A DNA stretch of 64,000 nucleotides. Origin: a virus. Its lineage: Duplodnaviria; Heunggongvirae; Uroviricota; Caudoviricetes. The stretch lies in the IMG/VR virus record IMGVR_UViG_3300013121_000003, positions 34,674 through 98,673 of that record; one strand, 5' to 3'. The notes beneath the pieces were generated by a model, which was not told where the DNA came from, ran no database searches, and saw only the letters and a list, made by a program, of their open reading frames with translations. Positions 11,253-44,766 of the stretch are shown in pieces; within the stretch, counting starts at the first letter, position 1; the number at the start of each line of letters is the position of its first letter. The position numbers were made by a program, and so were the translations under genes.

Positions 11253-12230
11253 CTTCGTGTATTTCAGATTTGGCGGAAAGTATTCATTATTTTTGTTGTT
11301 AGGATTATCAACTTCCGACAAGATTTGGTCGATATCCTTGGAACTTCCGTGCTGGATATGGAACATATGAAGGGGAACGAACTCTTTCAGATGTGGATCG
11401 TGTTCAACCAGCTTGTGGAAAGCACCTTTTTGAATGGAACGATCCTCAACATCCATGAACTGGCTCGATGGCCGATGGAATTGCCACTTCGGAATTCGGC
11501 CAGCCGAGTCTTTCGGGAAGTTCGGATGATTGACCGAAATAACGAACAAATTCTCTTGAGGATGATAGGAACCGAAAGCATTACCCTCATAACGACGGGC
11601 TTGTGCCTGTTCTGGTGAGAGACCTTTCTTGATCAGATCGTCATAGCGATCCGAAGCCGTGCACCAACGAGTGCCCTTGCCATAGAGGCAAGCACCTTCG
11701 ATGGTCTTGATGCGATGGATCATCACACCAGAAGTTGGATTGTGATAGACGAGATCGGCACCTTCAGCCTTCTTCAATCGCTCTTTCTCGTTCTCCGAGA
11801 CGGCTTCAACATCCTTGAGCGGATGAACAACGGCTTCCAAGTCATGGAGAGACTTGTAGGAATTCAAGTCTTTGTTGGCAATCTTTCCCTTGTGTTTCTC
11901 GAAAATGGACAAAGCTTCGTGCATCCGGCCAGCGTCTTCTTGCTTGAGGCCACCACGATGATACATGTTCACCAAATTTTGGGTATACTTCTTATTATCG
12001 GACGGATCGGCGTGCTTGGCAATGTGATCGATGATTTCGTCGTTAGTGGTCAACTTGCCACGAGGATCGTGCGTTGAAGCATGTTCAGGAGTATAGAGAG
12101 TTTTCTTAGCCCACTGACCCTTGATGAAGTTGATGCGAGCATCAAACTTGTTCTCAAGGATGGTGGTAAATCGTTTGAACGACAACATATCTTTTCCTTT
12201 ATTCTCTTCTTTCAATTTCTTGTCTGCCAT
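11247..12230 (-). CDS. Phage hypothetical protein with a GKGTRWCT motif; second possible start at 12188 (MLSFKRF)
   Basis: DPSDNKKYTQNL, KDLNSYKSL, ACLYGKGTRWCTA, KWQFH, QFMDVEDR. Looks GC-rich. AAGGA RBS precedes the 12188 ATG. Confidence 0.75.
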   Translation of the reverse strand: MADKKLKEENKGKDMLSFKRFTTILENKFDARINFIKGQWAKKTLYTPEHASTHDPRGKLTTNDEIIDHIAKHADPSDNKKYTQNLVNMYHRGGLKQEDAGRMHEALSIFEKHKGKIANKDLNSYKSLHDLEAVVHPLKDVEAVSENEKERLKKAEGADLVYHNPTSGVMIHRIKTIEGACLYGKGTRWCTASDRYDDLIKKGLSPEQAQARRYEGNAFGSYHPQENLFVISVNHPNFPKDSAGRIPKWQFHRPSSQFMDVEDRSIQKGAFHKLVEHDPHLKEFVPLHMFHIQHGSSKDIDQILSEVDNPNNKNNEYFPPNLKYTKL

Positions 12231-12264
12231 TTGTTCGCTCTCTATCTAGGATGATGGACGATGA

Positions 12265-12292
12265 ACCATATCATAGAGAACATGCTTGTCAA
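12265..12292 (-). promoter_or_regulatory. Putative sigma70-type promoter for the 11247-12230 gene
   Basis: TTGACA (12292-12287), 16-nt spacer, TATGGT (12270-12265). Confidence 0.5.
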
Positions 12293-12697
12293 TTATTTTT
12301 TCCCTTGACTCTCGATCATTCGTGCCAAATCAGCGGTCGAACAGACTAGGATGTTGTTAACTGGTGATTTATTGTCACCAGCTTCGGGAGACATACTTTT
12401 GTCTAATTTTTTAATTTCAAGTAATTCACGATTTGCTTCAACCATTGTCTTTAAAAGTAATGTCATATTTTCAAAGAAACGAGCATGTTGTGTTTGCATT
12501 GCCAATGATTTACATTCGGCAATAGCATCTGCGCCTTCTTTCATTAGTTCAATTAAATTACCTTTAGCAATTTCATATTCATTGTCATCCGAATCAACAA
12601 TATTGTCTAAACGCTTCCGTAATTCAGAAGGTTCACGAATTATATTTTCTGGTTCTATGTCTAAAGCATTTGTCAAATCATCGAAAACCGAACGCAT
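12293..12697 (-). CDS. gp16: Terminase small subunit
   Basis: 134 aa after gp15; EYEIAKGNLIELMKEGADAI, HARFFENMTLLLKTMVEANRELL, NNILVCSTADLARMI. Confidence 0.85.
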   Translation of the reverse strand: MRSVFDDLTNALDIEPENIIREPSELRKRLDNIVDSDDNEYEIAKGNLIELMKEGADAIAECKSLAMQTQHARFFENMTLLLKTMVEANRELLEIKKLDKSMSPEAGDNKSPVNNILVCSTADLARMIESQGKK

Positions 12698-12734
12698 TTA
12701 TTTACTCCAAAAGTTTATTATGAATATTTAGTAA

Positions 12735-13580
12735 TTACTCAAAACTTATTGGCCCAGAAGTAAATTCTTCGATAAATCCAAAGTCCGTATTTGCGAAAAT
12801 GGTATTTGCGTTGACAGTCAATGATGCGTTCGATGTTGCGACTCCATTGGCATCTTGACCAGGAGAGACAACAATTTCTTGCAGAACATCTGTGTTTGCA
12901 ACAGAATCATCAATGTCAGAAGTAGAAGAAATAATAAATCGTTCGTGGGCAAACTTGATAATTGGCTTCGACTTGATTGGTCCAAAGAAGGCGGTCTTGA
13001 CAGTAAAGCTTAGAGTCCAAATAAAGACTCGTCTATCTGTAAAGTTTCCATCATATTTGTCTTCAAATGAAACGTTTTTAAGTTCAACAGGAATGTCAAG
13101 TGAAATTCCCATTTCTGGAATGATATTGACACTTAATGTCCAGTCTGGGGTGAAGAACGGAATGATTTGTTCAATGATCTTATTTCCATCTTCTATGTTG
13201 TTAACATAGACATAGAGATTGAAATTCATGTCATAAGGAACTTGGATGTATTGTCTCATAAGTTTGTTAGAGTTGTCGTCATCTCTGACAACATATCTCG
13301 TCATATGAGACATTCTTCTTTCTGCTGCGTATCGGAAAGGTGGAATGATTTCAAACGCCATACGAGGCAAAACGATAGCAGCTTCTTTTGTAGCGTCTGG
13401 ATCAACATCAGCACGAAGCAGAAGTTTATTCTTGGGTGCATAAGTTAATGGAACACGGATAATTTGTGAGACACTTCCATCTGCTGCGTATCTGTGGAAG
13501 TGAATGTCATTGAACATTGTTCCAAACATAGCAACCATTTTACGAATAGTTGAGTGATAAAATGGTGCGTTTCCGAGCAT
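12735..13580 (-). CDS. gp15: Tail sheath stabiliser/terminator
   Basis: FYHSTIRKMVAMFGTMFNDI, VPLTYAPKNK, LPRMAFEI, VPYDMNFNL, IIEQIIPFFTPD, GNFTDRRVFIWTLSFTVK. Confidence 0.95.
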   Translation of the reverse strand: MLGNAPFYHSTIRKMVAMFGTMFNDIHFHRYAADGSVSQIIRVPLTYAPKNKLLLRADVDPDATKEAAIVLPRMAFEIIPPFRYAAERRMSHMTRYVVRDDDNSNKLMRQYIQVPYDMNFNLYVYVNNIEDGNKIIEQIIPFFTPDWTLSVNIIPEMGISLDIPVELKNVSFEDKYDGNFTDRRVFIWTLSFTVKTAFFGPIKSKPIIKFAHERFIISSTSDIDDSVANTDVLQEIVVSPGQDANGVATSNASLTVNANTIFANTDFGFIEEFTSGPISFE

Positions 13581-13582
13581 GA

Positions 13583-14083
13583 TTAAACTTTAATCCTCTG
13601 TTTTCCGTTGTTGTCGAAATGACCAAGTTGTTTCAATTTTTCTCTATGAGAATCGTCGCCATGTCTCCAAATTAATCTGGCTGTATCGCTATTTAATTTA
13701 TGTTTATTCATGAGGTTATGAAGCTGTTCATGATCTGAACGATAAGCAATTTCATATTTAGTACAATCATCTAAATCATGTTCATTAACTAATCTATCAA
13801 TATTTTTCTCTGATCCTTTTTTCGCAATTTCTTCTTTAGCGACATGTGGTAAAGGTCCGTTTAATAATTTATGATGAAACTCTGGAAAAAAATAAGCAAC
13901 TCGAAATTTACAATTATCACTTAATTTATGTTTTTCTAGCAATTTTCTAACATGATTTTTGTTTTGTTTAATAATAATTCCTGTATACTCTTCTTCAGAC
14001 AAATGAGGTTTATCAATAAGTTTATCCACATAACCAGGATGATCTTTTTCGATTAATTTACAAGATGAAAATTTATCTAGCAT
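13583..14083 (-). CDS. MLDKY-family 26-aa helical-repeat protein (copy 1)
   Basis: MLDKFSS start; repeats such as IAKKGSEKNIDRLVNEHDLDDCTKYEIAY; TAATG overlap with the gp14 stop. Confidence 0.75.
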   Translation of the reverse strand: MLDKFSSCKLIEKDHPGYVDKLIDKPHLSEEEYTGIIIKQNKNHVRKLLEKHKLSDNCKFRVAYFFPEFHHKLLNGPLPHVAKEEIAKKGSEKNIDRLVNEHDLDDCTKYEIAYRSDHEQLHNLMNKHKLNSDTARLIWRHGDDSHREKLKQLGHFDNNGKQRIKV

Positions 14084-14814
14084 TAGTAATTCTTCTCACT
14101 AAATGGATTGCTTTCCGTAAAATCTACAATTGTGTCTTCATTCTGTTCTGTTTGGATAGCGACGTTATCATCTCCCATGTCAATGTCTAAAACGGTCTGA
14201 TAACCAGACGAGACGATCATAGAACCATCATGACTGACCATGTAATAATTCGAATGATCGATGATGCCATGATCGATGATGTTTTGAGTATGCGTTCTGA
14301 ACATAACGTCGATTGCATCGATTCCAGTGATGAATTTTTCTGACGAGTATTCATAGACTTCACAAGTCATATTGAAAGTTTGAAGATGTCCGAGTTGATA
14401 AAACGTAGGCTTATTGTCCACGAACATGATTTGGAAAATCTTTCTGTTCATGGGGAAGTAAATTAAGTCACCTTCTCTGGGAGCCAATATATCTTCAGGA
14501 GTTCCGATTTCTAGGTCGAAACGTCTCCGAGAAATTGTAAAGATTATTTGATCACGAATTTCCACGTCAAATTTAGACATGAAAATTCTATCACCACTGA
14601 ACCCATCAATAGATTTAATATACATTTCAACAGGATAAGCAGTGTCGAATGTTGACTGATCATCCGAATAAGTTAATTGATCAAAGTTGTTTCTTCTTCT
14701 GGGGAGATAAAGAAATTCCTGTCCATATTGCTTGATCGACTCGATAACCAAGTCTTCTAGCAAGTTTTGTTCTGATGTTCTTTTATCTGTTAAGAAGAAT
14801 GTGTTAAGAGTCAT
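14083..14814 (-). CDS. gp14: Neck protein
   Basis: [67 protein letters not shown]. Start placed at the ATGA overlap with the HNH stop. Confidence 0.95.
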
Positions 14815-15287
14815 TTTAGATGATTCCAAATTTTTCTATGTTTTATATAAGATATTAATCCAGGAGAAACACAATAATCCTTTGCAATTTTTGTGTGTTT
14901 TTCGTTGTTATTAATTCTCTTTCTAATTTCTAAAACATCATTATCTTTTAATTTTGATAAACCGTGCCGTTCACCTTTAGAATTAATTTTTCTTCCTTTT
15001 GAATCTCTATCTAAAGAATTTTCATATGGTGTTCCTAAAAATAAATGATTAGGATTACAACAACTAGGGTTATCACATTTATGACAAACTAATAATGAAC
15101 CTGGATCAATTTTAAAAGTTAATATCCAAGATGCTCTATGTGCTCTAATATCATTTTTTTCGAATAATTTCCAAAATTTTCCATAACCATCTTTATCTTT
15201 ACCACATTTCCATTCCCAACAAGAATCCTTATCTAAAATATTAACTTTTGACCAAAATCTATCTATAGGATTTAATTTTTTTTTCAT
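14811..15287 (-). mobile_element. Free-standing HNH homing endonuclease
   Basis: [56 protein letters not shown]-rich; overlaps the gp13 stop (TGATG) and the gp14 start (ATGA). Confidence 0.9.
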
Positions 15288-16270
15288 CAAGATACTATGT
15301 CCAATACTGGTATACTCCAACTGTTAAGAAGTTCATCGTCTAGAACTTTTAATTCTTCAACAGCTTCATCGTATATCGTTTGACCAGAAAAAACAATGCC
15401 TCCTGGCAACATCATTCCACTGAACTTCTTCAGATTCGTTCCCCATTGTTTCTTCATGAGTTCTGTGGCATAGCGAATGAGCCAACGATCCTTCCAAATA
15501 TCTGTATACGTATCAGGATCAAGAACATTATAGCATTCAAAAACAATATATTCGCCTAATGTCAATCTCTGTTTGGCTTTATCAATATAGAGTCGATTAT
15601 GGTTCTTATTATAACGAAATGGAGTCTGTCCAACCAGAACATCGTGGAACAACTGAAGATGCTGCATTGACATGTAGTAAGGAACTAACTGAGAATTCGT
15701 CAATGTATAGATGTTGTTTAATGCCATTTGGTAGTTAATTGAAAACATATCGGCACCAGTTGACAAGTATGAAAGTGGAAAGACTCTAGAGATTCCGATT
15801 ATGTTTTCTGGCAATTCGATATAACCACCGAGTTCCGCTGTAATCGAAGCACCAGAACCACCAGATGTTGTGATAGAAATTGTTGGGGTTGTTGCGTATC
15901 CAGCACCATTGTTAGCTAGATTGACCGCAGTGATTGTTCCGTTTCCATTTGTGGTAATTGTTGCTTCTGCATTTGCAGAAAGAGCATGATGCCCATTAGA
16001 AGAAAAAACAACAGTATCAGAATTCGAATATCCGGTTCCACCAGATACAAGAGTTAAATGATGAATAGCGTCTGAGAATAGATTAGCTACTACTTGATAT
16101 TTGTAATAATGCTTGATGGTTCCATCGAAATGATATTCAGCATACTTAGAAAGTGCATAGTCAATTTGATTCTGAATTTGCTCTTCAGCCAAATTGATTT
16201 CGAGAACCGGAGCACCAAGCTGTTCTAGACAATATTCTTTGAATTCTGTTCTACTTGCAGGAAGAGCCAT
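15287..16270 (-). CDS. gp13: Neck protein with an inserted beta-rich module
   Basis: [95 protein letters not shown]. Confidence 0.95.
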
Positions 16271-16300
16271 ATGAAATACCTACTATTGTTATTTTGTAGG

Positions 16301-16308
16301 TATTTATA
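16301..16308 (-). promoter_or_regulatory. T4-late-type promoter TATAAATA upstream of gp13
   Basis: Exact T4 late consensus about 30 nt before the gp13 start. Confidence 0.75.
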
Positions 16309-16564
16309 AACCCTTTTTATTCAATCGTCTTAATATGTCCTGATGAAGAAGAGGATCATGATGTTTGGAAAATAAATGATTGATTATCTTATGTTGGTTT
16401 TCGTGAGACATTTCATATGTTTCATGAGTAAATCTTTTTCGTTGAAATATTCTATATGAAATTCCATTTGTAACAGAAGAATTTATAGGGAAATTATCAA
16501 TTACATTTAGAAATATAGGGTTGATATCCAGACTTGTAGATGCTCTTGACCGTGTGAAAATCAA
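16304..16564 (-). CDS. Small hypothetical protein coupled to the radical SAM gene
   Basis: 86 aa; ATGA overlap with the radical SAM stop; fills the gap to the gp13 promoter. Confidence 0.5.
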   Translation of the reverse strand: MIFTRSRASTSLDINPIFLNVIDNFPINSSVTNGISYRIFQRKRFTHETYEMSHENQHKIINHLFSKHHDPLLHQDILRRLNKKGL

Positions 16565-17898
16565 GCTCTATCTTGTCCCCACAAGTCTTGTCGTTCTTTG
16601 GGAAGTTCGTATCCATGAGCTTCAATCCTAAACGGCAACCATCCTGTCATGAACTCTATAAATGTGGCGAAAAATGGGATATGGTCAGAATAAGCATTGT
16701 CGCATGACTTTGAGAATAATTCTCCCTTCAAGAACATGCAGGAGCCTTGACACGCCTGAAGAACTGGACAGTTTGAACATGATTCTCTGTGTTTCCAATG
16801 AGTTGCCGTCGTCAATTTAACTTTTTCTAGATTGTTCAGATGACCAATCAAATGACTTCTTCCATTTGGTGCCGTGGATACAGATGAAACATTTTGACAT
16901 GTCAATACGTTTCCACGAAGATCAACGGCCAAAGCTCCTGGGTCGTCCATTCCACACTTCTGGCCAAGTGTATCGGCATGTCTCTGTGCAACAATAGAAT
17001 CATACCATGTTTTAAATCTAGAACGAAGAATTATAAAATTGTTTATTTGTTTTTCTCTGATTTGAAATACCGTTTCTCTTCTGAAATCATAATGAAGTTT
17101 TTTGTCATCAATCAAATTATTTAAACCACCTTCATCATATGCGTCGATAAATCCACCTTCACCAATATTAAACTCAGAATGACCAAGAACATTCGTGAAA
17201 AAATCTTGAATTTCTTTTCTATTAAAATTTCTGCGATGGAGCATAGAATTAAATGAAGTATTTTTCGGTCTTTTTTCGAATAAAGTTAATATATTCTTTC
17301 TAATATCCGCATCTTCAAAAGGGTCTGGGCCACGAATAGATTGACCAGGACCATCGTGTGAAATTCCAACATTTACATTCAATTCTTCAATCCAATCTAT
17401 AACTTCAGATGTTAATAAAGAACCGTTTGTGATCATCAAGAATGATGCTTTTGGATAGAGTTCTTTGAGTTTATATGAAAGAGGTTTGATTGTCTTCCAA
17501 TATACTAATGGCTCTCCACCCCAAAATTGAATATTCTTAGGAGATTCAGAAAGTTTTTTTGAAACCATCTTAATGAAATGGTCGATATGTTTGTTAGAAG
17601 TTTCTTCAGCCGTTGGAACAAATCTCTGAAGACAATATTCACACGAATAATTGCATGATAAACCAAGTTGAATTTTCAGAGTATGAATTTTGTCGGATTT
17701 ACCAACAGGATTTTGTTCAGAAGTAGCAAAAACATTCTTATTAAATTTAATATTGAATTTATTCTCAAATTCGAATGGTTTTCCGTCTTCATCCCATAAT
17801 TCAGACGTTTGATTGTCATACGTCAGTTTTCCAATTTTTATATCTTTAATTTGATTATTTTCAAAAACAGGTTTAGTACACCATAATGTAAACTTCAT
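16561..17898 (-). CDS. Radical SAM enzyme with a C-terminal SPASM domain (peptide/protein maturase type)
   Basis: CNYSCEYC (CxxxCxxC), FWGGEPL, ITNG, GISHDGP; SPASM C-x13-G-x4-C (CGMDDPGALAVDLRGNVLTC) and C-x2-C-x5-C-x3-C (CSNCPVLQACQGSC) plus a further Cys; AAGGA RBS. Confidence 0.95.
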   Translation of the reverse strand: MKFTLWCTKPVFENNQIKDIKIGKLTYDNQTSELWDEDGKPFEFENKFNIKFNKNVFATSEQNPVGKSDKIHTLKIQLGLSCNYSCEYCLQRFVPTAEETSNKHIDHFIKMVSKKLSESPKNIQFWGGEPLVYWKTIKPLSYKLKELYPKASFLMITNGSLLTSEVIDWIEELNVNVGISHDGPGQSIRGPDPFEDADIRKNILTLFEKRPKNTSFNSMLHRRNFNRKEIQDFFTNVLGHSEFNIGEGGFIDAYDEGGLNNLIDDKKLHYDFRRETVFQIREKQINNFIILRSRFKTWYDSIVAQRHADTLGQKCGMDDPGALAVDLRGNVLTCQNVSSVSTAPNGRSHLIGHLNNLEKVKLTTATHWKHRESCSNCPVLQACQGSCMFLKGELFSKSCDNAYSDHIPFFATFIEFMTGWLPFRIEAHGYELPKERQDLWGQDRA

Positions 17899-17915
17899 AA
17901 TTTATCCTTTTGATT

Positions 17916-18191
17916 TTAACCACCACCGTCGCCATCGCCACAAACACATGCACATACACATATACAATTTCCATATATTCCCCTCATATCAGAAAAACCT
18001 ATAGAACTAGAAACTGAGGGAAATGCTTTATATGAAGCACCAGTATAATAATATTTTCCTCTATAAAAATTTAAGTTATATAAATCTGAATCTGTTGTTC
18101 CAAAAGAAGAAGGATTAGGTGTAGTTACACCATAAAATTCATTTCTAATATCTGTGAATGAAATAGGATTTGGAACAATAGGTGTTACCAT
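17916..18191 (-). CDS. Small protein with a fibre-tip-like N-terminus and a C-terminal CxCxCxCxC-GDGDGGG core; candidate radical SAM substrate
   Basis: 91 aa ending GNCICVCACVCGDGDGGG. Overlaps the fibre stop (ATGGTAA) and ends 17 nt before the radical SAM start. Confidence 0.7.
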   Translation of the reverse strand: MVTPIVPNPISFTDIRNEFYGVTTPNPSSFGTTDSDLYNLNFYRGKYYYTGASYKAFPSVSSSIGFSDMRGIYGNCICVCACVCGDGDGGG

Positions 18192-19861
18192 TTAAATTTA
18201 CTTTCCAAATATTCAACCTTGAGTGAAAGTTCTTTGATTGCTTCGATCAACAGAGGAATCAATTTTTCATATTGAACTGTCAAATAATTTTCACCAGACT
18301 TAGAGACAGAATTACCATCAACGTCTTCAATATCAAATGGAGCCAATTTAACAGCTTCGGGAAGAACTTTTTCAATCTCTTGTGCGATAACTCCGACTTG
18401 TCTAGAGTAATTATGATATCCAAATTTCTCGGCAACTTTATTCTGAGTATAATATACACCACTAATAGAAAGAACTTTGTTCAATGCAGCATCTATTCTT
18501 GAAATGTCTTTCTTGAGACGTTTGTCTGAATAATAAGCAGTAATGTTATTAGTAGCTCGAATTTCACCAGCCGTTGCGGATGCCGATGTTCCGACCCCTA
18601 ATCCACCTGATAAACTTGCATTATTACCAGTCAATTCCCATCGAGCCGTTGTTGCTCCTAAAGCGGTTCCAACAGTATTTGATTCTGGATTTACTCCACC
18701 CGAAGAAGTAATTGCGCCAGAAAAATTACCAGTATTAGCAACTACAACAAATCTGGCAGTTGTTGAACCCAATGTTTGGCCAACAGTATTTGAAGCAGGA
18801 AAGAACCCACCTGAAGAAGTAACTGTGCTCGAAAAATCAGCAACGTTTCCATATAGATAAAATCTTGCTGTTGTTTGGCCTAATGTTGCGCCAACAGTAT
18901 TCGAAACACAATATAATCCGTTTGAAGTCGTTACCGCATTTCCTAGAAGATTGAATCTTGCTGATTCGCCTCCAAGATTGGTTCCGTTGGCCGTGGGCGT
19001 GATATCTCCTGAGAAGTTACCAGTATTGGCATTGAGAATAAATCTCGCTGTAGATGCTCCTAAAGACGTTCCAGAAGTATTTGAATCACAAAAAATTCCA
19101 TTAGAAGTCGTTACAGCATTGGCGAATAAATTGAACCTTTGGGCAAGAGCACCAAGAACTTGTCCAACCGTGTTTGATTCAGGAAAGAAACCTGTTCCTG
19201 AAGTCACTGAACCAGAAAATGTTCCGGCAGCACCCCAAATGATGAAACGATTGGTTGTATTTCCGGCTGTAATCGAGTTAGAAGACGGAAGAACAGAACC
19301 AGTTAAAGTTCCACCAGCCAAGGGAAGATATAAAGAAGCAGCCGAAGTTGCGGCATCGGAAACAGCATTTGAATGTGCAGCAATTGCCGCAGTTTGAGCA
19401 GAAGCAGCCCGAGTATTAGCGGCAATTGCACGATCATATGCATTCTTGACAGAATTAGCGGACGCTGCAATTAGAATTGAAGTATTGGTAACAGAATCCA
19501 ATACCATAAGAATTCCGTTAGCCGTGGAATTGGCTTTGGGAAGTCTGGCGTCATCAATAGTTCCAGAAACAATATCGGCAGCGTCGTGAGTGTGTGAACC
19601 AGAAGAACCGCCGATTGCCCCCCAAGCTCCATTGGCATAACCTTCGAAAGCATTTGTTTCAGAGTTATATCGGAAAACACCATTTGCTCCTGTTGGTCTT
19701 TGTCCTGTATTTCCTACAGGAACAAGAATTCCATCCGTGCCGATGATGTTGAGATTGTACGTTAAAGTTGCGGTATTGATACCGACTTTGGCTTGGTATG
19801 CATAGAATTCAGTGTTTCCTACTGAAATTCCATGATGAACTCTGAAAACTTTTGCTGTCAA
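18185..19861 (-). CDS. Tail fibre with a C-terminal intramolecular chaperone (peptidase S74-like)
   Basis: YYSDKRLKKDI, VGVIAQEIEKVLPEAV, YLTVQYEKLIPLLIEAIKEL; about 7 SNT.G..LG...ARF repeats; TTG start after GGGGAG. Confidence 0.88.
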   Translation of the reverse strand: MTAKVFRVHHGISVGNTEFYAYQAKVGINTATLTYNLNIIGTDGILVPVGNTGQRPTGANGVFRYNSETNAFEGYANGAWGAIGGSSGSHTHDAADIVSGTIDDARLPKANSTANGILMVLDSVTNTSILIAASANSVKNAYDRAIAANTRAASAQTAAIAAHSNAVSDAATSAASLYLPLAGGTLTGSVLPSSNSITAGNTTNRFIIWGAAGTFSGSVTSGTGFFPESNTVGQVLGALAQRFNLFANAVTTSNGIFCDSNTSGTSLGASTARFILNANTGNFSGDITPTANGTNLGGESARFNLLGNAVTTSNGLYCVSNTVGATLGQTTARFYLYGNVADFSSTVTSSGGFFPASNTVGQTLGSTTARFVVVANTGNFSGAITSSGGVNPESNTVGTALGATTARWELTGNNASLSGGLGVGTSASATAGEIRATNNITAYYSDKRLKKDISRIDAALNKVLSISGVYYTQNKVAEKFGYHNYSRQVGVIAQEIEKVLPEAVKLAPFDIEDVDGNSVSKSGENYLTVQYEKLIPLLIEAIKELSLKVEYLESKFKW

Positions 19862-19896
19862 GGTTCCAATATCTCCCCTTGTTTATTGTTATTTTT

Positions 19897-19972
19897 TGGC
19901 GAGGGCTGCTGGATTTGCACCAACTCTTTCGATTTTGGAGATCGACGTGCTCCTGTTAAACACTAAACCGAC
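19897..19972 (-). tRNA. trnW: tRNA-Trp (CCA), 76 nt with encoded CCA end and an imperfect acceptor stem
   Basis: Minus strand GTCGGTT TA GTGT TTAACAGGA GCAC G TCGAT CTCCAAA ATCGA AAGA GTTGG TGCAAAT CCAGC AGCCCTC G CCA. D, anticodon and T arms pair; positions 2:71 and 3:70 are mismatched. Confidence 0.8.
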
Positions 19973-19986
19973 GCATTTAATTTTAT

Positions 19987-20625
19987 TTATGAAGTTAGCG
20001 GTTTTACTAATATAAAAGAACCATCTGGTAAGTATTGTCTTCTCTTTCCTTTTGCGGATTGTGATATCTTATTTCTTAAGTTTTCTTTTTCTTCTTTAGT
20101 TCTATTATTCCAAACAGATTTCATTCCTTTAGATTTTTTCTTTTTTATATCATTTAATTCTTCAATACTTTTATTGTAATAAGTTTTTTTCCAATTTTCG
20201 GAATGTTGTTTTAAATGTAGTTTTCTTGTGTTATGAATTTTTTCATATAATATCTTTTTCTCTTCTTCCGTCATTTTCTGATGTCGTCTTTTACCAACAT
20301 CTGAAAGTTTTTGTCTAGTAATTTTCTTTTCATCTTCTGTAAGAAGAGCGTAAAGATTTCCTCCACGAGCATTTTTACTTATATTATATCCATGTTTTCT
20401 TCGTTCATATGATTGATAAAAATTTATCCAATATTCTTCTGCTTCATCCAATTCTTCTTGAGTTGAACATTCTTGAAGAATTGTTTTTGTAAAATTTTCT
20501 TTACCATATTTTTTAATAGCATTTAAAATTAATCGGCCAGAACCATAATAATTCGGCCGATTTTTAGAATCTTGTCCTACGTATATTTTATTGTTTATAT
20601 TGTTAGTAATTAAATATACTTGCAA
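19987..20625 (-). mobile_element. GIY-YIG (Seg-like) homing endonuclease
   Basis: VYLITNNINNKIYVGQ...YYGSG..ILNAIKKYGKENF..TILQEC...ELDEAEEYWI...GYNI; very AT-rich; TTG start. Confidence 0.9.
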
Positions 20626-20745
20626 TTAAACATCTTTCTTTTTGAACATACCTTTTACTTTTTCAAATAATGTCTTAGCCCATTCTGGTTGTGGAACATG
20701 CCAACCAACAACAAGTCCAACGGCAACACCTACTAAAAATTCCAT
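20626..20745 (-). CDS. 39-aa single-TM membrane protein (not in ORF track)
   Basis: MEFLVGVAVGLVVGWHVPQPEWAKTLFEKVKGMFKKKDV; strong AAGGAG RBS; its stop abuts the GIY-YIG start. Confidence 0.7.
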   Translation of the reverse strand: MEFLVGVAVGLVVGWHVPQPEWAKTLFEKVKGMFKKKDV

Positions 20746-20778
20746 GTTTAAACTCCTTTAAATGTCTTTAGTTTCTTC

Positions 20779-20786
20779 TATTTATG
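20779..20786 (-). promoter_or_regulatory. Late-type promoter CATAAATA
   Basis: tatttatg on the plus strand, about 35 nt upstream of the 39-aa gene. Confidence 0.5.
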
Positions 20787-20789
20787 TTA

Positions 20790-21125
20790 CTAGAAATATG
20801 ATGGAATATATCCTAAATGTTTTGTCAAATATTCCTTTTGTTCTTGAGTTCCATATTTATATATTTGTCTTTTATGAGAATTGTTCAATTTTTGATGTTT
20901 TAATAAGGTGGTATGATGTGAACTATGTTTGAAAGCAATTATAAGATCGTGTTCATCAGAATCTAATTTGTGATTTTTGATTAATTTATCAACTTGTTCA
21001 TCGTCCCCATGATAAGCAATATCGTATTTGTGTTCATCTGACAAATTCGGATCATTTAGACAGTTGTCGATTGTTGGTTTATGACCTTTTCGAATTAAGG
21101 CAGATATGGAATATTTGTCTAGCAT
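20790..21125 (-). CDS. MLDKY-family repeat protein (copy 2)
   Basis: MLDKYSIS...NPNLSDEHKYDIAYHG-type opening; 26-aa period; TAATG overlap with the holin-like stop. Confidence 0.75.
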   Translation of the reverse strand: MLDKYSISALIRKGHKPTIDNCLNDPNLSDEHKYDIAYHGDDEQVDKLIKNHKLDSDEHDLIIAFKHSSHHTTLLKHQKLNNSHKRQIYKYGTQEQKEYLTKHLGYIPSYF

Positions 21126-21586
21126 TACTTGACAGAATCCTTATTCAAAAACCTTGATCCGAAGTAGAAACCAATTATGATGGTGATGATCGAGATCGTT
21201 GTGTCATCCAAAATGATCTTAGTTGCTGCTTCCATGTTCTCAATATTTAAACCAGATTGGAGCAAAACAATGGCTGTTGTTACTTTAACACCATAAAAGA
21301 GAGAGAAACACGAATACGTAATGAAAGGACGAACAGAAGCACGCCAAGTTTCCATCCACGAGTTTCCATATCCAGCGTCAGATTCCCTTGACTTTTGAAT
21401 ATCTGCAAAAGTTTCTTCTATCGTTTTCAGTTCTTTATTGACTTCGGCATTCCTCAAAGAAGCTTCAAGTTTGAGAGTAGCGAGTTGAAGTTCAAACTTA
21501 TACTTCTGTTTCATTTCGAAATAACGAAATATAACTGGAATAGCCGAAGATAAAAGCCCTGCAATGGTTGTCAGAATAACTAACAT
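21125..21586 (-). CDS. Holin-like membrane protein (3TM holin type)
   Basis: N-terminal hydrophobic helix, WMETWRASVRPFITY, C-terminal TM IISIITIIIGFYFGSR-like end. Confidence 0.65.
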   Translation of the reverse strand: MLVILTTIAGLLSSAIPVIFRYFEMKQKYKFELQLATLKLEASLRNAEVNKELKTIEETFADIQKSRESDAGYGNSWMETWRASVRPFITYSCFSLFYGVKVTTAIVLLQSGLNIENMEAATKIILDDTTISIITIIIGFYFGSRFLNKDSVK

Positions 21587-21589
21587 ATA

Positions 21590-21826
21590 TCAATCCATTC
21601 TTCTTAATTTAGCTCTATGTTCTTCATTTCCGGAAAGCGCAATCCATCTTTTTGTTATATAGTCTAGTTCATGTTCGTCTAATAACTTATGTTTTTGAAC
21701 ATTACTTCCAAAAAAAGCTATTTCACGTTTTTCTATATGAGATACATTAGGATTAGACAAACATTTGTCTATCCATCCTGGATGCTTACGAATGATTAGT
21801 TCTACAGATGAATATTGGTCTAACAT
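21590..21826 (-). CDS. MLDKY-family repeat protein (copy 3)
   Basis: MLDQYSSVELI...WIDKCLSNPNVSHIEKREIAFFG; 26-aa period; TAATG overlap. Confidence 0.75.
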   Translation of the reverse strand: MLDQYSSVELIIRKHPGWIDKCLSNPNVSHIEKREIAFFGSNVQKHKLLDEHELDYITKRWIALSGNEEHRAKLRRMD

Positions 21827-22185
21827 TATTTTTTCACTTCTGGTTCAACTTCTGGTTCAATATCTGGCTCTGGTGAAGGCGGAACCTTAAAGGCAACTGA
21901 AGTCAATGTCTCTAGGATTTTCATCTTCTCCTGTCCACGAGAATAAGCCGTGACGCCAACAATCAACATCATTGAGATATGATAAAGGCCACCGGAACCC
22001 AATGTGATTGGATTCCAGGGAACGAAATCATGTGCAGAATAGTATTGTGACTGAAATATGGCATTCATGATTGGAGCTATCAAGAAATCAAATAAACAGA
22101 TTACCAGATAGCTCCATCCCATTGATGGACGCCATAATCGCTGATACCAAGATTTATCAGCTATTTTGGATTGAAATTCATCCAT
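21826..22185 (-). CDS. Second holin-like membrane protein (3TM holin type)
   Basis: WYQRLWRPSMGWSYLVICLFDF, LYHISMMLIVGVTAYSRGQEK. Confidence 0.65.
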   Translation of the reverse strand: MDEFQSKIADKSWYQRLWRPSMGWSYLVICLFDFLIAPIMNAIFQSQYYSAHDFVPWNPITLGSGGLYHISMMLIVGVTAYSRGQEKMKILETLTSVAFKVPPSPEPDIEPEVEPEVKK

Positions 22186-22493
22186 TATTCTTTTTCGATT
22201 TCTTCGTTAATTCGTCCAAGAAATAGTGGAGGGAAATGTGGATGCTCGGCTACACACTTCTTGATCAAAACAGCTTCTTCGCTGGTAATCTTGACTGGTG
22301 CAGTTGCTCTCCATAGCTTTTGTTGAAGCATATAACGATCAAGCTTCTTGTCCATTGTCATCTTCTCACCTTCACCGGCAGGAAGATCAAGAGCATTGAC
22401 AGCAATCGTTCCAAGAGTAATTTCCTTACCCTCTTCATCCTTCATTGGTTCGTTATCACGATTCAGAAGTGACTTGTGTGCATTAAATAACAT
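22185..22493 (-). CDS. Small fibre-region hypothetical protein
   Basis: MLFNAHKSLLNRDNEPM...; GGAG RBS and a GATAAATA motif at 22547-22540 support the 22493 start. Confidence 0.65.
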   Translation of the reverse strand: MLFNAHKSLLNRDNEPMKDEEGKEITLGTIAVNALDLPAGEGEKMTMDKKLDRYMLQQKLWRATAPVKITSEEAVLIKKCVAEHPHFPPLFLGRINEEIEKE

Positions 22494-22519
22494 TTTGTAT
22501 TTTCTCCGTAAGTTAATAA

Positions 22520-23173
22520 TTAAACAGTCCAATCATAGCTATTTATCTGATCAATTGTAGTGATTTCATCCGAATTGATCTTACTAATAACATCAGCTTG
22601 TTTTTCGAAAAGCGCTTTGACTCGGGCAATGATTGCTGCATAGATTGCCTTGAACTGTAGTCCAGTTAAATTGACCACATTTCCAGATACAACGAATGGA
22701 GCAGTATCTTCATCGGCCATTGAGCCAGCAGAACCCATCAAAAGTAATTTGGCACGATCATCTGTTGGAACAGACATTCCAGCAAAAGTCATACCACCAA
22801 CTTCAAGATTCCAACGTTTCTCACCAACATAGGCAATTAGTTTTGCCTTGGCTGCTTCTGGTGAAAGTTGTTCGATAGCAACTTCTGGAACGTTATTATC
22901 AACAATATTTGCGTAGGCATTTAATGTTGATTGAATCTTGTCGGTTACTTCTTGGGAAGTAGGTGCTGGTGTTTGTGAATTATACCAGATTCCCATTACC
23001 CATTGTAGATAATCAGTATCAGTTTCAAACAACGGCTCAAGGTTTTCTGTTTTACCTTGGTTAGCAGCTTCTCTTGTTTGGTTAGATAAAGCTTTCTTTT
23101 CTCCCAATGCCGCCAATTGTTCTGGTGACATTACGAATTCAAAAACTGTATTTCCAATTGTAATTGATGACAT
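22520..23173 (-). CDS. Tail-fibre assembly/accessory protein, DUF4376-like C-terminus
   Basis: KRWNLEVGGMTFAGMSVPTDDRAKLLL...VKALFEKQ; directly downstream of the long fibre. Confidence 0.6.
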   Translation of the reverse strand: MSSITIGNTVFEFVMSPEQLAALGEKKALSNQTREAANQGKTENLEPLFETDTDYLQWVMGIWYNSQTPAPTSQEVTDKIQSTLNAYANIVDNNVPEVAIEQLSPEAAKAKLIAYVGEKRWNLEVGGMTFAGMSVPTDDRAKLLLMGSAGSMADEDTAPFVVSGNVVNLTGLQFKAIYAAIIARVKALFEKQADVISKINSDEITTIDQINSYDWTV

Positions 23174-23192
23174 TTATTTTTCCTTTATATTA

Positions 23193-26100
23193 TTACCATG
23201 TTGAAATAGCAGCACGTTTCCAAGTATCGGTTGCCGTGCAAATATAAGCATAAGAAGAATCCCAACGAACTTCACCAGCCGTTCCGGTATCCGAAGCTGT
23301 TGTTGGAGCCGAAGCAGTTTCTAGATATAGTTTAGCACGAATGAATGAATATGCTGAATCATCCGCTAAACGAACATGAATATCAGTAGTTGATCTTTTT
23401 AGTGCTGGATAAGAAGATGTTGTTCCACCAAATTGAAGCCGACCAAAATCTGCATTAGAACTATCTGCTAAACGAGCAATACCATCAGCAGAACTAGTAA
23501 TTTGTCCTCTTGAACCTCCTGGTGCTCCAAATTGGAACGCATAATTTTCTGAATAGAAAACTGGTGAAACAACTGATGTTCCAAAATATCCAGTTCTTGG
23601 TCTAGTTGCACCAGAAGCACCGATATCATAAGTGTTATCTGATTCAGCTAAAAGATGACCACCAGAACCACTAATTTGCCAGCGATTTGTGTTATTTGTT
23701 TGAAAACTAATTTCATGGCTGGTTGTGGTTCCAATATAAAAAATACCACCAGTTCCGGTTCCTGCTACTTGTGATTGAACAACAAAATTTCCACCACCGC
23801 TTGCAAAAACAGCCAATCTAGCATAATTAGAAGCATCAGTATAAGTCTTATAGATTCTTAGAGTTTGTGCAGATGTAGAATTTCTAAGTGCTAAAACAGC
23901 AGCAGCATCACGAAATAAACGGAGATCAACAGCAGCTTCGGCATTATTATTAGTTCCAGACCAACACAAATCACCGTTTGCTACAATTACAACATGCCCA
24001 CCATTTGAACCAAGTGCACCATCTGTTCTAAGAGCAAAATATGAAGTTGATATAGCAAAACTAAGTCTTAAATAATAATTAGTCAATGCAGATATTGTTC
24101 TATCAGTGCTTACATTTGTAGATGTTAATGATAATGCAGTTTTATACGGATTTACAGTTGAACCAGTAGAACCAGCAGTAGTCGTTTGGAAAATAATACT
24201 TCCACCAGCACCAGTTCCAGTTCCAGCAGAACCACGGAAAATCCAATCAGCACCAGCAGTATTTGTTGTTCCAGAAACTACCGAACCAATTCCAGAATAA
24301 ACAGCAAGTGGAGCGGCAACATCTGTATAGTCAGAACTCTTCAAGAATGGAACGGTAGCGGTATGTGTTCCAGATTGTGAACCAGAAGTATTGATTGCAG
24401 TTCCGCCAACCGTCGCTGCTAATTGGAATGTATTGGTAGAAGCATTTACGACATAATAAGCAGTAGAAGCTGATAATCCTGTTGGAAGAGCACCAGTTGT
24501 TGTCAGGTAAACTCTAGTTCCATTTGATAGACCATGTGAAGTCCAAGTAATTACTCCCGGAGAAGCAATCGTCATCGTTACTGTTGAAGTATATGTTCCA
24601 CGTGATATATAAGTATCACCGGTTCCACCATCAGAACGATTTGAACTTCTCCAAGAAAATATAGCTTGTGCACCAAGTCTAAATTCAGCAGGTCCACCAG
24701 ACCCGGTTGTGTCTCCAATTATCTGATAATGATAACCTACTGCATTAGAACATACACCAATAGTTCTGTTAGATGATCCTCCAATAGCTATGAAATCATT
24801 TATGGTGGTTCCTAAATATTTGATTGTTCCATTAACCCAAATATCTTTTACTCTATAAGAAGAACTTCCAATATCGTAAGTATTATCAGTTCCGGGAATT
24901 AAGTGTCCAGCAGCTTGCATAACCCAAACAAGAGAACTTCCTGTATTTCCACCAGTATGGAAACGCATTTGATCACCATGCAAATGTAATTGTCTGGCGG
25001 TACTTGTTCCGGTTCCAGCGGCTTCAGGTAAAATTTTGAAATCAGTTGCATTATACCAACCAATCAACATTCGAGCATAGTTAGAAGCATCTGTATACGT
25101 TGAATAGATATGTTGAGCTTGATATGTTGTTGAGTTTTTAATAGAAACAGTTCCAGCAACATCTAGAGTTGTTATTGGAGAAGTTGTTCCAATGCCGACA
25201 TTACCGCCAATAAACGCTATGTTTCTAGTAGTTCCAGTTCCAGCAGCTTGAGTTCCTATAGAAAGAACATTGCTTGTTGTGGCCCAATCAAGAACAAATC
25301 TTTCATAGTTGCTTGAATCAGTATATGTATTATAGATTCTAAGTGTTTGTGCAGATGTAGAATTTCTTAGAGCAAGAGTGTTCGCTGCATCCCGCCGTAA
25401 AATAGTATCTGTATTGAATATGAGCGGCATATCATTAAGAATAGAAACTGCTGATGGAGAAACAGTTAGATTTGCAGCATTTTGAGCATAAAAAAACAAT
25501 GATGAACCACTAGAAAACATTCCTTGTGCATCACTGTTTCCTTCAGCAGAACCAAAGAAATCAGAAATCACTCGACCTGATTTCTTGACTGACATTTTTG
25601 AAACACCACCAACTTGCAAATCCATCAATAATGAACCAGAAGCAGAAGCGGTATCAGTTACATTGAATTTCAATCCAGTGAAAGTTACACCAGAAGCATT
25701 CCATGTTTGTGATAGATTCAGGATTGGATTAGAAGTGGTGACGGTTGCTCCGGTCAACGTCAGAGAACGATTGGTTTCGTCCCAAGAACTTCCACCCATT
25801 CCTCCGATAACACCAGAAGCATTGTATTGAACAGAATTGTTGGAACCACCAGCCGAACCAACTGGTAGCCAAGAACTTCCATTATAAACTGTTGCTGAAC
25901 CTGTCGTGGAATTGAATATCAAAGAACCAGCAGAAGGTGAAGCCAAAGCATTCATTTGTGCTGTTGTTAGATTCTTGAGAACTAATCCAGGAGTTGTGGT
26001 TCCACCAAATGAAATATTACCGTTAGAAGAAATATGACTAGAAACACCAAGACTTCCTGATAAAGAAGCAGAACCAGTCAAGGACATTAAACCGTCCTTG

Positions 26101-35518: not shown

Positions 35519-35528
35519 CCATTAACCT

Positions 35529-43244: not shown

Positions 43245-43312
43245 ACTCTTCCTTATTCTCGACACAGTTGGATGTATGGAGTATTTATCACAGTCAACCA
43301 GGGAGTTAGAAT

Positions 43313-44085: not shown

Positions 44086-44093
44086 AAATGTTT

Positions 44094-44120
44094 TGGGGGA
44101 GCTTAACCAAGGCTCCCCCA
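44094..44120. terminator. Hairpin between convergent genes
   Basis: TGGGGGAGC-9 nt-GCTCCCCCA, a 9-bp stem. Confidence 0.65.
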
Positions 44121-44126
44121 TTCGGT

Positions 44127-44219: not shown

Positions 44220-44227
44220 ATAGTCTC

Positions 44228-44745: not shown

Positions 44746-44766
44746 ACGAATTAAATTGAATTTGGT

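What the first reader, a model, noticed from the sequence alone, without database searches (positions are those of the whole stretch)
16561..19861. Tail fibre -> Cys-rich peptide -> radical SAM/SPASM maturase: a RiPP-like system that may modify a virion tip protein
Seen: an S74-chaperone tail fibre overlaps (ATGGTAA) a 91-aa gene ending GNCICVCACVCGDGDGGG. Seventeen nt later a complete radical SAM enzyme begins, with CxxxCxxC, GGE and a 7-Cys SPASM domain. The cassette sits in the late virion operon between fibre genes and gp13. Known: SPASM radical SAM enzymes such as AlbA, CteB, QhpD and PapB install thioether crosslinks on adjacent Cys-rich peptides, and PapB uses CX3D motifs (Cys-S to Asp). 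The core here contains two overlapping CX3D motifs (C-V-C-G-D and C-G-D-G-D). Inference: the N-terminal part (ISFTDIRNEFYG...NFYRG...SIGFSDMRG) resembles small adhesin/tip domains that follow chaperoned fibres. The phage may therefore bolt an enzymatically crosslinked or metal-cluster-bearing peptide onto its fibre tip for receptor binding or stability. I know of no characterised example, but cannot confirm novelty without a search.
Basis: partly seen in the sequence, partly recalled or inferred. Interest (0 to 1): 0.88.

Follow-up and report, generated by a model that had tools for sequence, protein, structure and literature searches.

The report
Radical-SAM-matured cysteine tail on phage fibre
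An uncultured T4-like phage encodes, directly after a tail-fibre gene, a small protein that ends in a run of alternating cysteines and a radical-SAM enzyme that very probably modifies that run; I found no paper describing this kind of enzymatic modification of a phage host-contact part.

Summary
Three translationally coupled minus-strand genes encode a 558-aa fibre with a self-cleaving S74 chaperone, a 91-aa protein ending NCICVCACVCGDGDGGG, and a complete radical SAM/SPASM enzyme. gp13, gp14 and gp15 follow.

The enzyme belongs to a large unnamed family (3223 proteins at E<=1e-10). In 101 of 103 phage or prophage loci with enough flank, it lies within 4 kb of a same-strand protein carrying a (Cys-x)n run. 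The run is usually the extreme C-terminus of a tail-fibre-type protein, or sits just before a self-cleaving S74 or Hint domain.

The link also holds in reverse. All 36 judgeable viral ORFs ending in (Asn-Cys)5 have the enzyme nearby.

Within the 91-aa protein's own family, 7 of 7 loci with Cys-bearing tails have the enzyme next door. None of 6 homologues with Cys-free tails does, yet most of those loci keep the S74 fibre upstream.

The chemistry (most likely thioether cross-links) and the protein's presence in virions are inferred, not shown.

I found no paper describing this. This scan has already noted the same enzyme/Cys-tail pairing on other genomes. New here are the minimal 91-aa form and the tail/enzyme covariation.

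The parts
18185..19861 (-). Tail fibre, 558 aa, with a C-terminal self-cleaving intramolecular chaperone
   Evidence: ORF. Pfam Peptidase_S74 matches residues 445-505 (E 1e-13). It clusters with the fibre proteins of other loci.
18347..18529 (-). S74 chaperone domain of the fibre. Cleavage is expected before Ser445 (..AYY|SDKRLKKD..)
   Evidence: Pfam coordinates. The cleavage site is inferred from what is known of S74 domains.
17916..18191 (-). 91-aa fibre-associated protein, the presumed substrate. Its start overlaps the fibre's stop (ATGGTAA)
   Evidence: Homologues are conserved, with 37 representative clusters. No Pfam, NCBIfam or PHROG family matches.
17970..18191 (-). Folded N-terminal domain, residues 1-74, homologous to the MTLPxSG..YYQ domain of larger Asn/Cys-rich phage proteins
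   Evidence: AlphaFold2 gives block-mean pLDDT of 78-90 for residues 1-70. hhalign against the MTLPxSG family gives probability 91%, E 1e-6.
17919..17969 (-). C-terminal tail N75-G91: five alternating Cys followed by GDGDGGG. This is the presumed modification site
   Evidence: The sequence itself. C76/78/80/82/84, G85 and D86 are invariant. AlphaFold2 block-mean pLDDT falls to 69, 46 and 36 over residues 71-91, and 79-91 are below 50. The tail is encoded by an imperfect 6-nt tandem repeat.
16561..17898 (-). Radical SAM/SPASM enzyme, 445 aa, with three predicted [4Fe-4S] sites
   Evidence: PF04055 and TIGR04085 score above their cut-offs. The AlphaFold2 model has pLDDT 91. The nearest solved structures are CteB, anSME, TigE, ChlB, SkfB and SuiB.
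17632..17655 (-). CX3CX2C motif (C82, C86, C89) for the SAM-binding cluster
   Evidence: Invariant in 34 homologues.
16702..16956 (-). SPASM domain with seven invariant Cys (315, 334, 374, 377, 383, 387, 399)
   Evidence: TIGR04085 matches residues 315-391. The cysteines are invariant.

Best explanation
The three genes form one late-expressed unit that makes a chemically modified fibre accessory.

The fibre trimerises and cuts off its S74 chaperone. The 91-aa protein has a folded domain of about 74 residues that carries a flexible 17-residue tail, N-C-I-C-V-C-A-C-V-C-G-D-G-D-G-G-G.

The radical SAM/SPASM enzyme takes this tail as its substrate. By analogy with CteB, PapB, NxxcB and QhpD, a Cys thiol binds an auxiliary cluster and the 5'-deoxyadenosyl radical abstracts a hydrogen from a nearby residue. 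A C-S thioether forms, costing 2 Da per link. This would turn an oxidation-prone thiol run into a rigid, non-reducible set of rings or inter-chain staples.

The folded domain then holds the modified tail on or near the distal end of the fibre, in the gene position that gp38-type adhesins occupy. In most relatives the same run is simply the C-terminus of the fibre itself.

My confidence in each step:
- The enzyme acts on the Cys tail: about 0.8. This rests on comparative genomics.
- The product is a thioether: about 0.5. This is inferred from the enzyme class.
- The protein is a virion or fibre-tip component: about 0.55. This is inferred from fusions and gene order.
For: 1. The enzyme is complete. 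It has CX3CX2C plus seven SPASM Cys, all invariant. Its SPASM model scores above cut-off. Its fold is closest to peptide-modifying SPASM enzymes (CteB E 1.6e-13, then anSME, TigE, ChlB, SkfB, SuiB).

2. Adjacency. Of 103 viral or bacterial loci with at least 2.5 kb on both flanks, 101 have a same-strand (Cys-x)>=3 ORF within 4 kb. The two exceptions carry a degenerate homologue. This holds for enzymes from 35% to 63% identical.

3. Reciprocity. A DNA scan for (Asn-Cys)5 found 47 ORFs of at least 90 aa with the run at or near the C-terminus. All 36 that could be judged have the enzyme in the locus. The other 11 have less than 2.5 kb of downstream sequence.

4. Covariation within the 91-aa family.
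- Cys-bearing tails with the enzyme immediately downstream, 7 of 7: window, L083, L084, L085, L175, L183, L184.
- Cys-free tails without it, 6 of 6 homologues: L174, L176/L177, L178, L179/L180, L181, L182.
- L181 has the same fibre, small protein, gp13, gp14 order as the window.

5. Fibre link.
- The run ends collagen-like and JWF-gp028-like tail fibres.
- In other loci it lies directly before an S74 or Hint self-cleaving domain, so it would again become the mature C-terminus.
- An S74 fibre precedes the small protein in 8 loci, with or without the enzyme.

6. Motif. Across 113 distinct runs, the x residues are N 38%, A 19% and D 15%, and Asn precedes the first Cys in 96. NxxcB makes Cys-to-Asn beta-thioethers in NxxC motifs and tolerates Ala, Gln and Asp as acceptors (PMC9389541). 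The window's clade keeps C-x-C-G-D, which gives a CX3D spacing.

7. Uniqueness. This is the only such run in the 163-kb genome.
Against: - There is no chemical or proteomic evidence of any kind.
- NCBIfam scores against every characterised maturase family are far below cut-off (PapB 67 vs 340, QhpD 65 vs 453, CcpM 62 vs 500, anSME 47.5 vs 349), so the reaction cannot be read from homology.
- In the window's clade the x residues are I, V and A rather than N or D. Acceptor rules taken from NxxcB or PapB may therefore not apply.
- No PqqD-like recognition element was detected. The enzyme's N-terminal 35 residues are modelled as all-beta.
- Ralstonia phage RSP15 has a 46%-identical enzyme beside tail genes but no real Cys run anywhere in its genome. 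Other substrates therefore exist.
- The structural match of the small protein to a fibre-tip adhesin is weak (Z 2.3).
- Nothing shows that the 91-aa protein is in virions.
Confidence: 0.55

Rival explanations
1. The cysteine run is mainly a metal-binding or disulfide-forming structural element of a trimeric tip, like the HxH iron sites of T4 gp37 or P2 gpV. The radical SAM enzyme performs Cys chemistry other than thioether cross-linking, for example another oxidation or helping to load a metal or cluster.
For: Alternating Cys places all thiols on one face of a beta-strand. The run sits at the end of proteins that are trimeric by their nature (S74 domains, collagen repeats). The small N, A and D residues between the cysteines would also suit tight packing. 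The reaction type cannot be assigned from homology.
Against: The characterised SPASM enzymes nearest in fold or in family score to this one form covalent cross-links or oxidise Cys to formylglycine, and none is known to load metals (established knowledge; nearest folds). Disulfides or metal binding would not need a dedicated enzyme, yet the enzyme tracks Cys strictly.
Confidence: 0.2
2. The 91-aa protein is a fibre assembly factor or chaperone, as gp38 is in T4 itself. It is modified by the enzyme but is not part of the finished virion.
For: It always follows the fibre gene, whether or not the enzyme is present, which is the position of the T4 gp38 and gp57-type assembly genes. It is small and no structural family matches it.
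Against: The upstream fibre already carries its own intramolecular S74 chaperone. In most relatives the Cys run is covalently part of the fibre's mature C-terminus, which points to a structural role for the run.
Confidence: 0.1
3. The pair is a true RiPP pathway. The folded domain acts as a leader and the Cys tail is released as a diffusible peptide that acts on the host or on competitors, unrelated to the fibre.
For: The layout is a small precursor-like protein with a disordered Cys-rich C-terminal core next to a SPASM maturase. Relatives have further tailoring enzymes (Asp/Asn hydroxylase, 2OG oxygenases, a halogenase-like protein).
Against: No protease or exporter lies in the cassette. The run is fused to the ends of real tail fibres and placed before S74 or Hint domains. 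The small protein stays paired with the fibre when it has no Cys and no enzyme is present.
Confidence: 0.1
4. The adjacency means nothing. The enzyme is an auxiliary metabolic or anti-defence gene that happens to lie beside a low-complexity ORF produced by a TG-rich hexanucleotide repeat.
For: The run is encoded by an imperfect 6-nt tandem repeat. A published pelagimyophage survey saw radical SAM cassettes only as variable cargo of the host-recognition cluster (PMC7029224).
Against: Adjacency holds in 101 of 103 loci, the reciprocal test gives 36 of 36, and the covariation is 7 of 7 against 0 of 6. The run is conserved at the protein level under different codons and different x residues.
Confidence: 0.03

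Closest known systems
PapB/PapA (freyrasin) and other ranthipeptide systems
   Same: A radical SAM/SPASM enzyme encoded next to a Cys-rich substrate. PapB is the best NCBIfam hit. The window's clade keeps a C-x-C-G-D tail, which gives the CX3D spacing PapB uses.
   Different: The score is 67 against a cut-off of 340, so this is not a PapB equivalog. Most family members have Asn-Cys runs with no Asp. The substrate is a folded protein or a whole tail fibre, not a leader-core peptide, and the setting is a phage virion operon.
NxxcB/NxxcA (streptococcal NxxC RaS-RiPP)
   Same: It forms a beta-thioether from Cys to an Asn three residues upstream, and tolerates Ala, Gln and Asp as acceptors (PMC9389541). 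An N-C-N-C run is a series of overlapping NxxC motifs. N, A and D make up 72% of the x residues.
   Different: Enzyme homology was not tested because no model is available in the libraries. NxxcA has a single motif in a short quorum-regulated peptide, whereas here 4-11 Cys are stacked at a protein's C-terminus.
CteB/CteA (SCIFF, thermocellin)
   Same: The nearest solved structure (5WHY/5WGG, E 1.6e-13, TM about 0.5). It has three [4Fe-4S] clusters and forms thioethers on a Cys-rich peptide.
   Different: Only 18% identical. CteB has an N-terminal winged-helix recognition element, whereas here the N-terminal 35 residues are modelled as beta-hairpins.
QhpD/QhpC and CrpC/CrpA (protein-level thioether cross-linking)
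   Same: These SPASM enzymes install Cys thioethers on a protein subunit rather than on a natural-product peptide. QhpD is the second-best NCBIfam hit. CrpC/CrpA is described in PMC13692751.
   Different: Their substrates are a dehydrogenase subunit and an archaeal Cys-rich protein, not a viral structural protein. The QhpD score is 65 against a cut-off of 453.
Anaerobic sulfatase-maturating enzyme (anSME, PDB 4K36-4K39)
   Same: The second-closest fold. The JWF homologue was annotated under this name in GenBank. It acts on a Cys within a protein.
   Different: The TIGR03942 score is 47.5 against a cut-off of 349. The substrate lacks the C/S-x-P/A-x-R sulfatase motif, and there is no sulfatase gene.
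Fibre-tip elements: the S16 gp38 adhesin on gp37, and the HxH metal sites of T4 gp37/gp12
   Same: A small protein encoded directly after the distal fibre gene. The only PDB match of the 91-aa model is the gp37-docking N-terminus of S16 gp38 (6F45_D). It also has an alternating-residue run at a trimeric tip.
   Different: The match is weak (Z 2.3, 45 residues). gp38 has a polyglycine sandwich, not a Cys run, and no known tip element needs a tailoring enzyme.

Membership tests
Radical SAM superfamily (PF04055) | CX3CX2C motif for the SAM-binding cluster, and a Pfam score above the gathering cut-off | tested here: met
   C82/C86/C89 are invariant in 34 homologues. PF04055 scores 37.4 bits against a cut-off of 29.5.
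SPASM subfamily (TIGR04085) | A C-terminal domain with the seven-Cys pattern CX9-15GX4C ... CX2CX5CX3C ... C for two auxiliary clusters | tested here: met
   TIGR04085 scores 34.5 bits against a cut-off of 27. C315, G329, C334, C374, C377, C383, C387 and C399 are invariant. The fold matches CteB, anSME and SuiB.
PapB family ranthipeptide maturase (NF047865) | Equivalog score of at least 340 bits | tested here: not met
   67.4 bits, covering mainly the radical SAM core at residues 71-185.
PapB family ranthipeptide maturase (NF047865) | Substrate with CX3D/E motifs | tested here: inconclusive
   C82-D86 and C84-D88 are present, and G85 and D86 are invariant in the window's clade. Most family members have Asn-Cys runs with no acidic residue after them.
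QhpD (TIGR03906) | Equivalog score of at least 453 bits, and a qhp operon context | tested here: not met
   65.3 bits. The neighbours are phage structural genes.
Anaerobic sulfatase-maturating enzyme (TIGR03942) | Equivalog score of at least 349 bits, and a substrate with the C/S-x-P/A-x-R motif | tested here: not met
   47.5 bits. The 91-aa protein has no such motif.
NxxC-type RaS-RiPP (NxxcB/NxxcA) | Substrate Asn-x-x-Cys motif | tested here: met
   N75-C-I-C78 in the window. Asn precedes the first Cys in 96 of 113 runs.
NxxC-type RaS-RiPP (NxxcB/NxxcA) | Enzyme orthologous to NxxcB | not tested
   No NxxcB model appears among the NCBIfam hits listed (one search shows the best 25 of 47), and no NxxcB sequence was available from a tool.
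Canonical RiPP pathway | Precursor gene next to the maturase | tested here: met
   The gap is 17 nt. Adjacency holds in 101 of 103 loci.
Canonical RiPP pathway | A PqqD-like recognition element, a leader protease and an exporter | tested here: inconclusive
   The enzyme has no PqqD or RRE Pfam hit, and its N-terminus is modelled as beta-hairpins. No protease or transporter gene was seen among the ORFs from 12000 to 24000. An unrecognised recognition domain cannot be excluded.
CXXX-repeat radical SAM system (TIGR04114/04115, named in earlier scan notes) | Cys at every fourth residue in the target | tested here: not met
   Here Cys is at every second residue. Enzyme relatedness to TIGR04115 was not examined.
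S74-chaperoned tail fibre (PF13884) | A C-terminal Peptidase_S74 domain on a fibre protein | tested here: met
   E 1e-13, 51.8 bits against a cut-off of 22, at residues 445-505 of the 558-aa ORF.
gp38-type fibre-tip adhesin | An N-terminal domain with the gp37-docking fold, and a gene directly after the distal fibre gene | tested here: inconclusive
   The gene position fits. The fold match to 6F45_D is the only PDB hit but is weak (Z 2.3, rmsd 2.1 over 45 residues).

The most novel reading that the evidence does not exclude
Many phages and prophages (thousands of enzyme homologues) use a private radical SAM/SPASM enzyme to weld the cysteine run at the distal end of their tail fibres into thioether-stapled tips. 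This would be the first radical-enzyme modification of a virion protein. The tail and its tailoring enzyme are exchanged as a module: Cys run with a radical SAM enzyme, or polyproline tail with a 2OG oxygenase. Fibre-tip chemistry, and not only sequence, would then be a variable in host recognition or virion robustness.
Probability: 0.45. Interest if true: 0.9.

Novelty: new variant of a known kind. Interest (0 to 1): 0.8.

Why it matters
Phage host range and virion robustness are thought to be set by the sequence and fold of fibre tips. No enzymatic radical modification of a virion protein has been described in the literature I could search.

If the cysteine run is cross-linked, that would add a chemical layer to receptor-binding proteins. 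It would also give radical SAM/SPASM chemistry a large new class of protein substrates, and it would explain the 'radical SAM cassettes' noted without a function in host-recognition clusters of aquatic myophages (PMC7029224).

It is directly testable. Achromobacter phage JWF is cultured and carries the fused form: fibre, Cys run, Hint domain and the enzyme. The 91-aa protein is a minimal substrate that is convenient for mass spectrometry.

Stable thioether-stapled trimer tips could also be useful for engineering phages or fibre-derived binders.

Tried and rejected
- Complex prediction of the enzyme (with three 4Fe-4S clusters and SAM) and the 91-aa protein gave no verdict (score 0.02, mark 0.32). 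It counts neither for nor against binding.
- Foldseek of the 91-aa model against the PDB found no match. The ESM Atlas gave only unnamed viral clusters. An Atlas search of the class-D C-terminal domain found nothing usable.
- Pfam, NCBIfam and PHROGs have no family for the 91-aa protein or its larger Asn/Cys-rich relatives.
- megablast of the region and tblastn of the 91-aa protein against cultured phages found nothing. A word-indexed protein search for the 91-aa protein found only one 69-aa relative.
- Ralstonia phage RSP15: the CxCxCxC DNA pattern matches in its genome are all off-frame or in very short ORFs.
- The T4 late-promoter word TATAAATA occurs 4 times in the window, no more than chance, so I make no promoter claim.
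- Sequencing runs: no RNA holder is listed. The DNA is held mainly by one activated-sludge metagenome, which may be the sample the window was assembled from.
- Five full-text literature searches combining radical SAM or SPASM with tail fibre, phage, thioether or cysteine-rich terms, and a check of a paper on a JWF-like phage, found no description of the system. One search was a poorly framed search and added nothing.

Full report
**Observation.** The window is part of a 163-kb genome of an uncultured, distantly T4-like myovirus. Its gp15 is at most 39% identical to cultured phages, and its DNA is held mainly by one activated-sludge metagenome.

On the minus strand, three genes run head to tail.
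- A 558-aa fibre (18185-19861) has Peptidase_S74 at residues 445-505 (E 1e-13).
- A 91-aa ORF (17916-18191) has an ATG that overlaps the fibre's stop in ATGGTAA.
- A 445-aa radical SAM gene (16561-17898) starts 17 nt further on, behind an AAGGA site.

A gp13-like gene comes next (65% identical to a PF26809-bearing protein), then an HNH endonuclease, gp14 and gp15.

The 91-aa protein ends NCICVCACVCGDGDGGG. The enzyme has CX3CX2C (C82/86/89), GGE (127-129) and seven SPASM cysteines. PF04055 and TIGR04085 both score above their cut-offs, and all ten cysteines are invariant in 34 homologues. The cysteine run is the only one of its kind in the whole genome.

**The enzyme.** An AlphaFold2 model (pLDDT 91) is closest to CteB (E 1.6e-13), followed by anSME, TigE, ChlB, SkfB and SuiB, all of which are peptide- or protein-modifying SPASM enzymes. 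NCBIfam ranks PapB, QhpD and CcpM first, but their scores are five- to eight-fold below the cut-offs. The enzyme therefore belongs to none of the characterised families, and its reaction cannot be read from homology. The family is large and unnamed, with 3223 proteins at E<=1e-10.

**Conserved partnership.** The first clue came from two cultured phages with 46%-identical enzymes beside tail genes. In Achromobacter phage JWF, the gp36-like fibre gp028 carries NCNCDCNCNCSC immediately before a Hint self-cleaving domain.

I then collected 80 IMG/VR loci and 80 loci from bacterial genomes. The bacterial loci are mostly prophage-like regions of Limnohabitans, Polynucleobacter, other Burkholderiales, Ferrovibrio and Rhodoplanes.

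Of 103 loci with at least 2.5 kb on both sides, 101 have a same-strand ORF with a (Cys-x)>=3 run within 4 kb. The two exceptions carry a homologue with a degenerate run.

The carriers fall into four types.
- Tail fibres of 190-620 aa, some with collagen repeats and some with the JWF gp028 N-terminus, that end in the run.
- Small proteins of 125-173 aa that end in the run.
- Proteins in which the run is followed directly by an S74 domain or a Hint domain.
- Proteins encoded downstream of the enzyme, in which the run is followed by an unknown 170-aa domain with a hydrophobic stretch.

S74 and Hint domains both remove themselves. In three of the four types, the run would therefore be the mature C-terminus.

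**Reciprocal test.** I scanned IMG/VR for DNA encoding (Asn-Cys)5 without reference to the enzyme. Among the 80 loci returned, 47 ORFs of at least 90 aa have the run at or near the C-terminus. All 36 that could be judged have the enzyme in the held locus. The other 11 have less than 2.5 kb of downstream sequence. Of the 33 remaining matches, mostly in very short ORFs, one has the enzyme.

**The 91-aa protein.** Relatives whose enzymes are 58-63% identical keep the same triad: S74 fibre, an 86-93-aa protein, then the enzyme. C76, C78, C80, C82, C84, G85 and D86 are invariant.

Its N-terminal 50 residues are homologous to the MTLPxSG..YYQ domain of the larger Asn/Cys-rich proteins (hhalign probability 91%, E 1e-6). 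The window's protein is thus a minimal version that lacks their Asn/Cys-rich middle part.

AlphaFold2 with 28 sequences gives a small alpha/beta domain, with block-mean pLDDT of 78-90 for residues 1-70. Confidence then falls through the tail, and residues 79-91 are below 50. Foldseek finds nothing in the PDB. An exhaustive aligner gives one hit at Z>=2, the gp37-docking N-terminus of the S16 gp38 adhesin (Z 2.3, 45 residues). That is a lead, not evidence.

**Covariation.** A profile search of 1.8 billion representatives found 37 clusters of this small-protein family. Some members have Hint domains after the run. Others have no cysteine at all: their tails are polyproline or Gly/Ser/Pro-rich, or are absent.

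Context look-ups gave a clean split.
- All seven loci with Cys-bearing tails have the enzyme as the next gene. One of them (L175) has a polyproline tail with a single Cys.
- All six Cys-free homologues lack the enzyme.
- Four of those six still have an S74 fibre directly upstream. The other two sit at the start of short contigs, where the upstream gene is missing or could not be identified.
- L181 has the same order as the window (fibre, small protein, gp13, gp14, gp15) but no enzyme.
- In both polyproline loci that extend far enough (L174, L178), DUF6065 and then a PF13640 2OG-Fe(II) oxygenase follow. PF13640 is the family that includes prolyl hydroxylases.

The sample is small and the loci are not phylogenetically independent. 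Even so, it indicates that the small protein belongs with the fibre, and that the tail and the downstream enzyme are a matched, exchangeable add-on.

**Likely chemistry (inferred).** Across 113 distinct runs there are 4-11 Cys. The residues between them are N (38%), A (19%) and D (15%), and Asn precedes the first Cys in 96 runs.

An N-C-N-C run is a series of overlapping NxxC motifs. NxxcB forms a Cys-to-Asn beta-thioether in NxxC and tolerates Ala, Gln and Asp as acceptors (PMC9389541). The window's clade instead has I, V and A between the cysteines and an invariant C-x-C-G-D, the CX3D spacing used by PapB.

SPASM enzymes that install thioethers on whole proteins are known: QhpD, and CrpC (PMC13692751). 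I therefore favour thioether cross-links, either within a chain or between the three chains of a fibre. I put only about 0.5 on that.

A metal-binding or disulfide role for the run, with different enzyme chemistry, remains open.

**Rivals.**
- A diffusible RiPP is unlikely. There is no protease or exporter, the run is fused to real fibres, and the small protein stays paired with the fibre when it has no Cys and no enzyme.
- A non-virion assembly factor cannot be excluded.
- Chance adjacency is excluded for practical purposes.

**Novelty.** Five full-text searches found no description of the system. The nearest published remark is that radical SAM cassettes vary within the host-recognition cluster of pelagimyophages (PMC7029224).

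The enzyme-substrate logic is that of known SPASM maturases. The substrate class and setting (phage fibre tips) are new. I therefore call it a new variant of a known kind.

This scan has already noted the same pairing on other genomes. Those are AI notes and I do not count them as independent evidence. I repeated the adjacency and reciprocity tests here. New in this report are the minimal 91-aa form, the Cys/enzyme covariation, the polyproline/oxygenase counterpart and the weak gp38 lead.

Noticed in passing
L174:1093-2511 and L178:583-2071: Homologues of the 91-aa protein with a polyproline tail instead of the Cys run. Each follows an S74 fibre and is followed by DUF6065 and a PF13640 2OG-Fe(II) oxygenase (the family of prolyl hydroxylases). 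This may be a second tail/tailoring-enzyme module.
   Followed up: partly
L033:5206-6105 and about 20 similar loci (e.g. L013, L057, L073): Proteins of 290-335 aa encoded downstream of the enzyme. The Asn/Cys region is followed by an unknown 170-aa domain (SKIICAKLYEFGMM..WAADQ..YRGY) with a hydrophobic C-terminal stretch. Their loci also carry an Asp/Asn beta-hydroxylase (PF05118), 2OG oxygenases, a Trp-halogenase-like protein and a fatty-acid-desaturase-like protein.
   Followed up: partly
window 17939-17966: The Cys run is encoded by an imperfect hexanucleotide tandem repeat (4.7 copies, 81% matches). Run length varies from 4 to 11 Cys among homologues, which would fit expansion and contraction by slippage.
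   Followed up: no
L001 (Ralstonia phage RSP15, record 33564-46835): A 46%-identical enzyme lies among tail genes, after a 277-aa protein with an H-x-D motif and before a 1615-aa protein. There is no genuine Cys run anywhere in the genome, so this family has at least one other substrate type.
   Followed up: partly
L003:1-5466 and L004: In the closest IMG/VR contigs (enzyme 55% identical) no small Cys-tailed gene lies upstream. Instead there is a PP-loop-like protein (SGGIDS motif). Two genes downstream is an S74 fibre whose released chaperone part ends ..GKCSNCSCGSK.
   Followed up: no
window 19987-20625 and 14811-15320: GIY-YIG and HNH homing-endonuclease-like genes lie on either side of the stretch that holds the fibre, small-protein, enzyme and gp13-like genes. 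The relative L181, which lacks the enzyme, has no gene between gp13 and gp14 where the window has the HNH gene.
   Followed up: no
window 16304-16564: An 86-aa TTG-start ORF overlaps the enzyme's stop codon. It has no family match. In L083 and L084 a 255-265-aa protein of unknown family overlaps the enzyme's end instead.
   Followed up: no
window 13583-14083, 20790-21125, 21590-21826: Three paralogous small genes start MLDK(F/Y)S or MLDQYS and are scattered through the late region.
   Followed up: no
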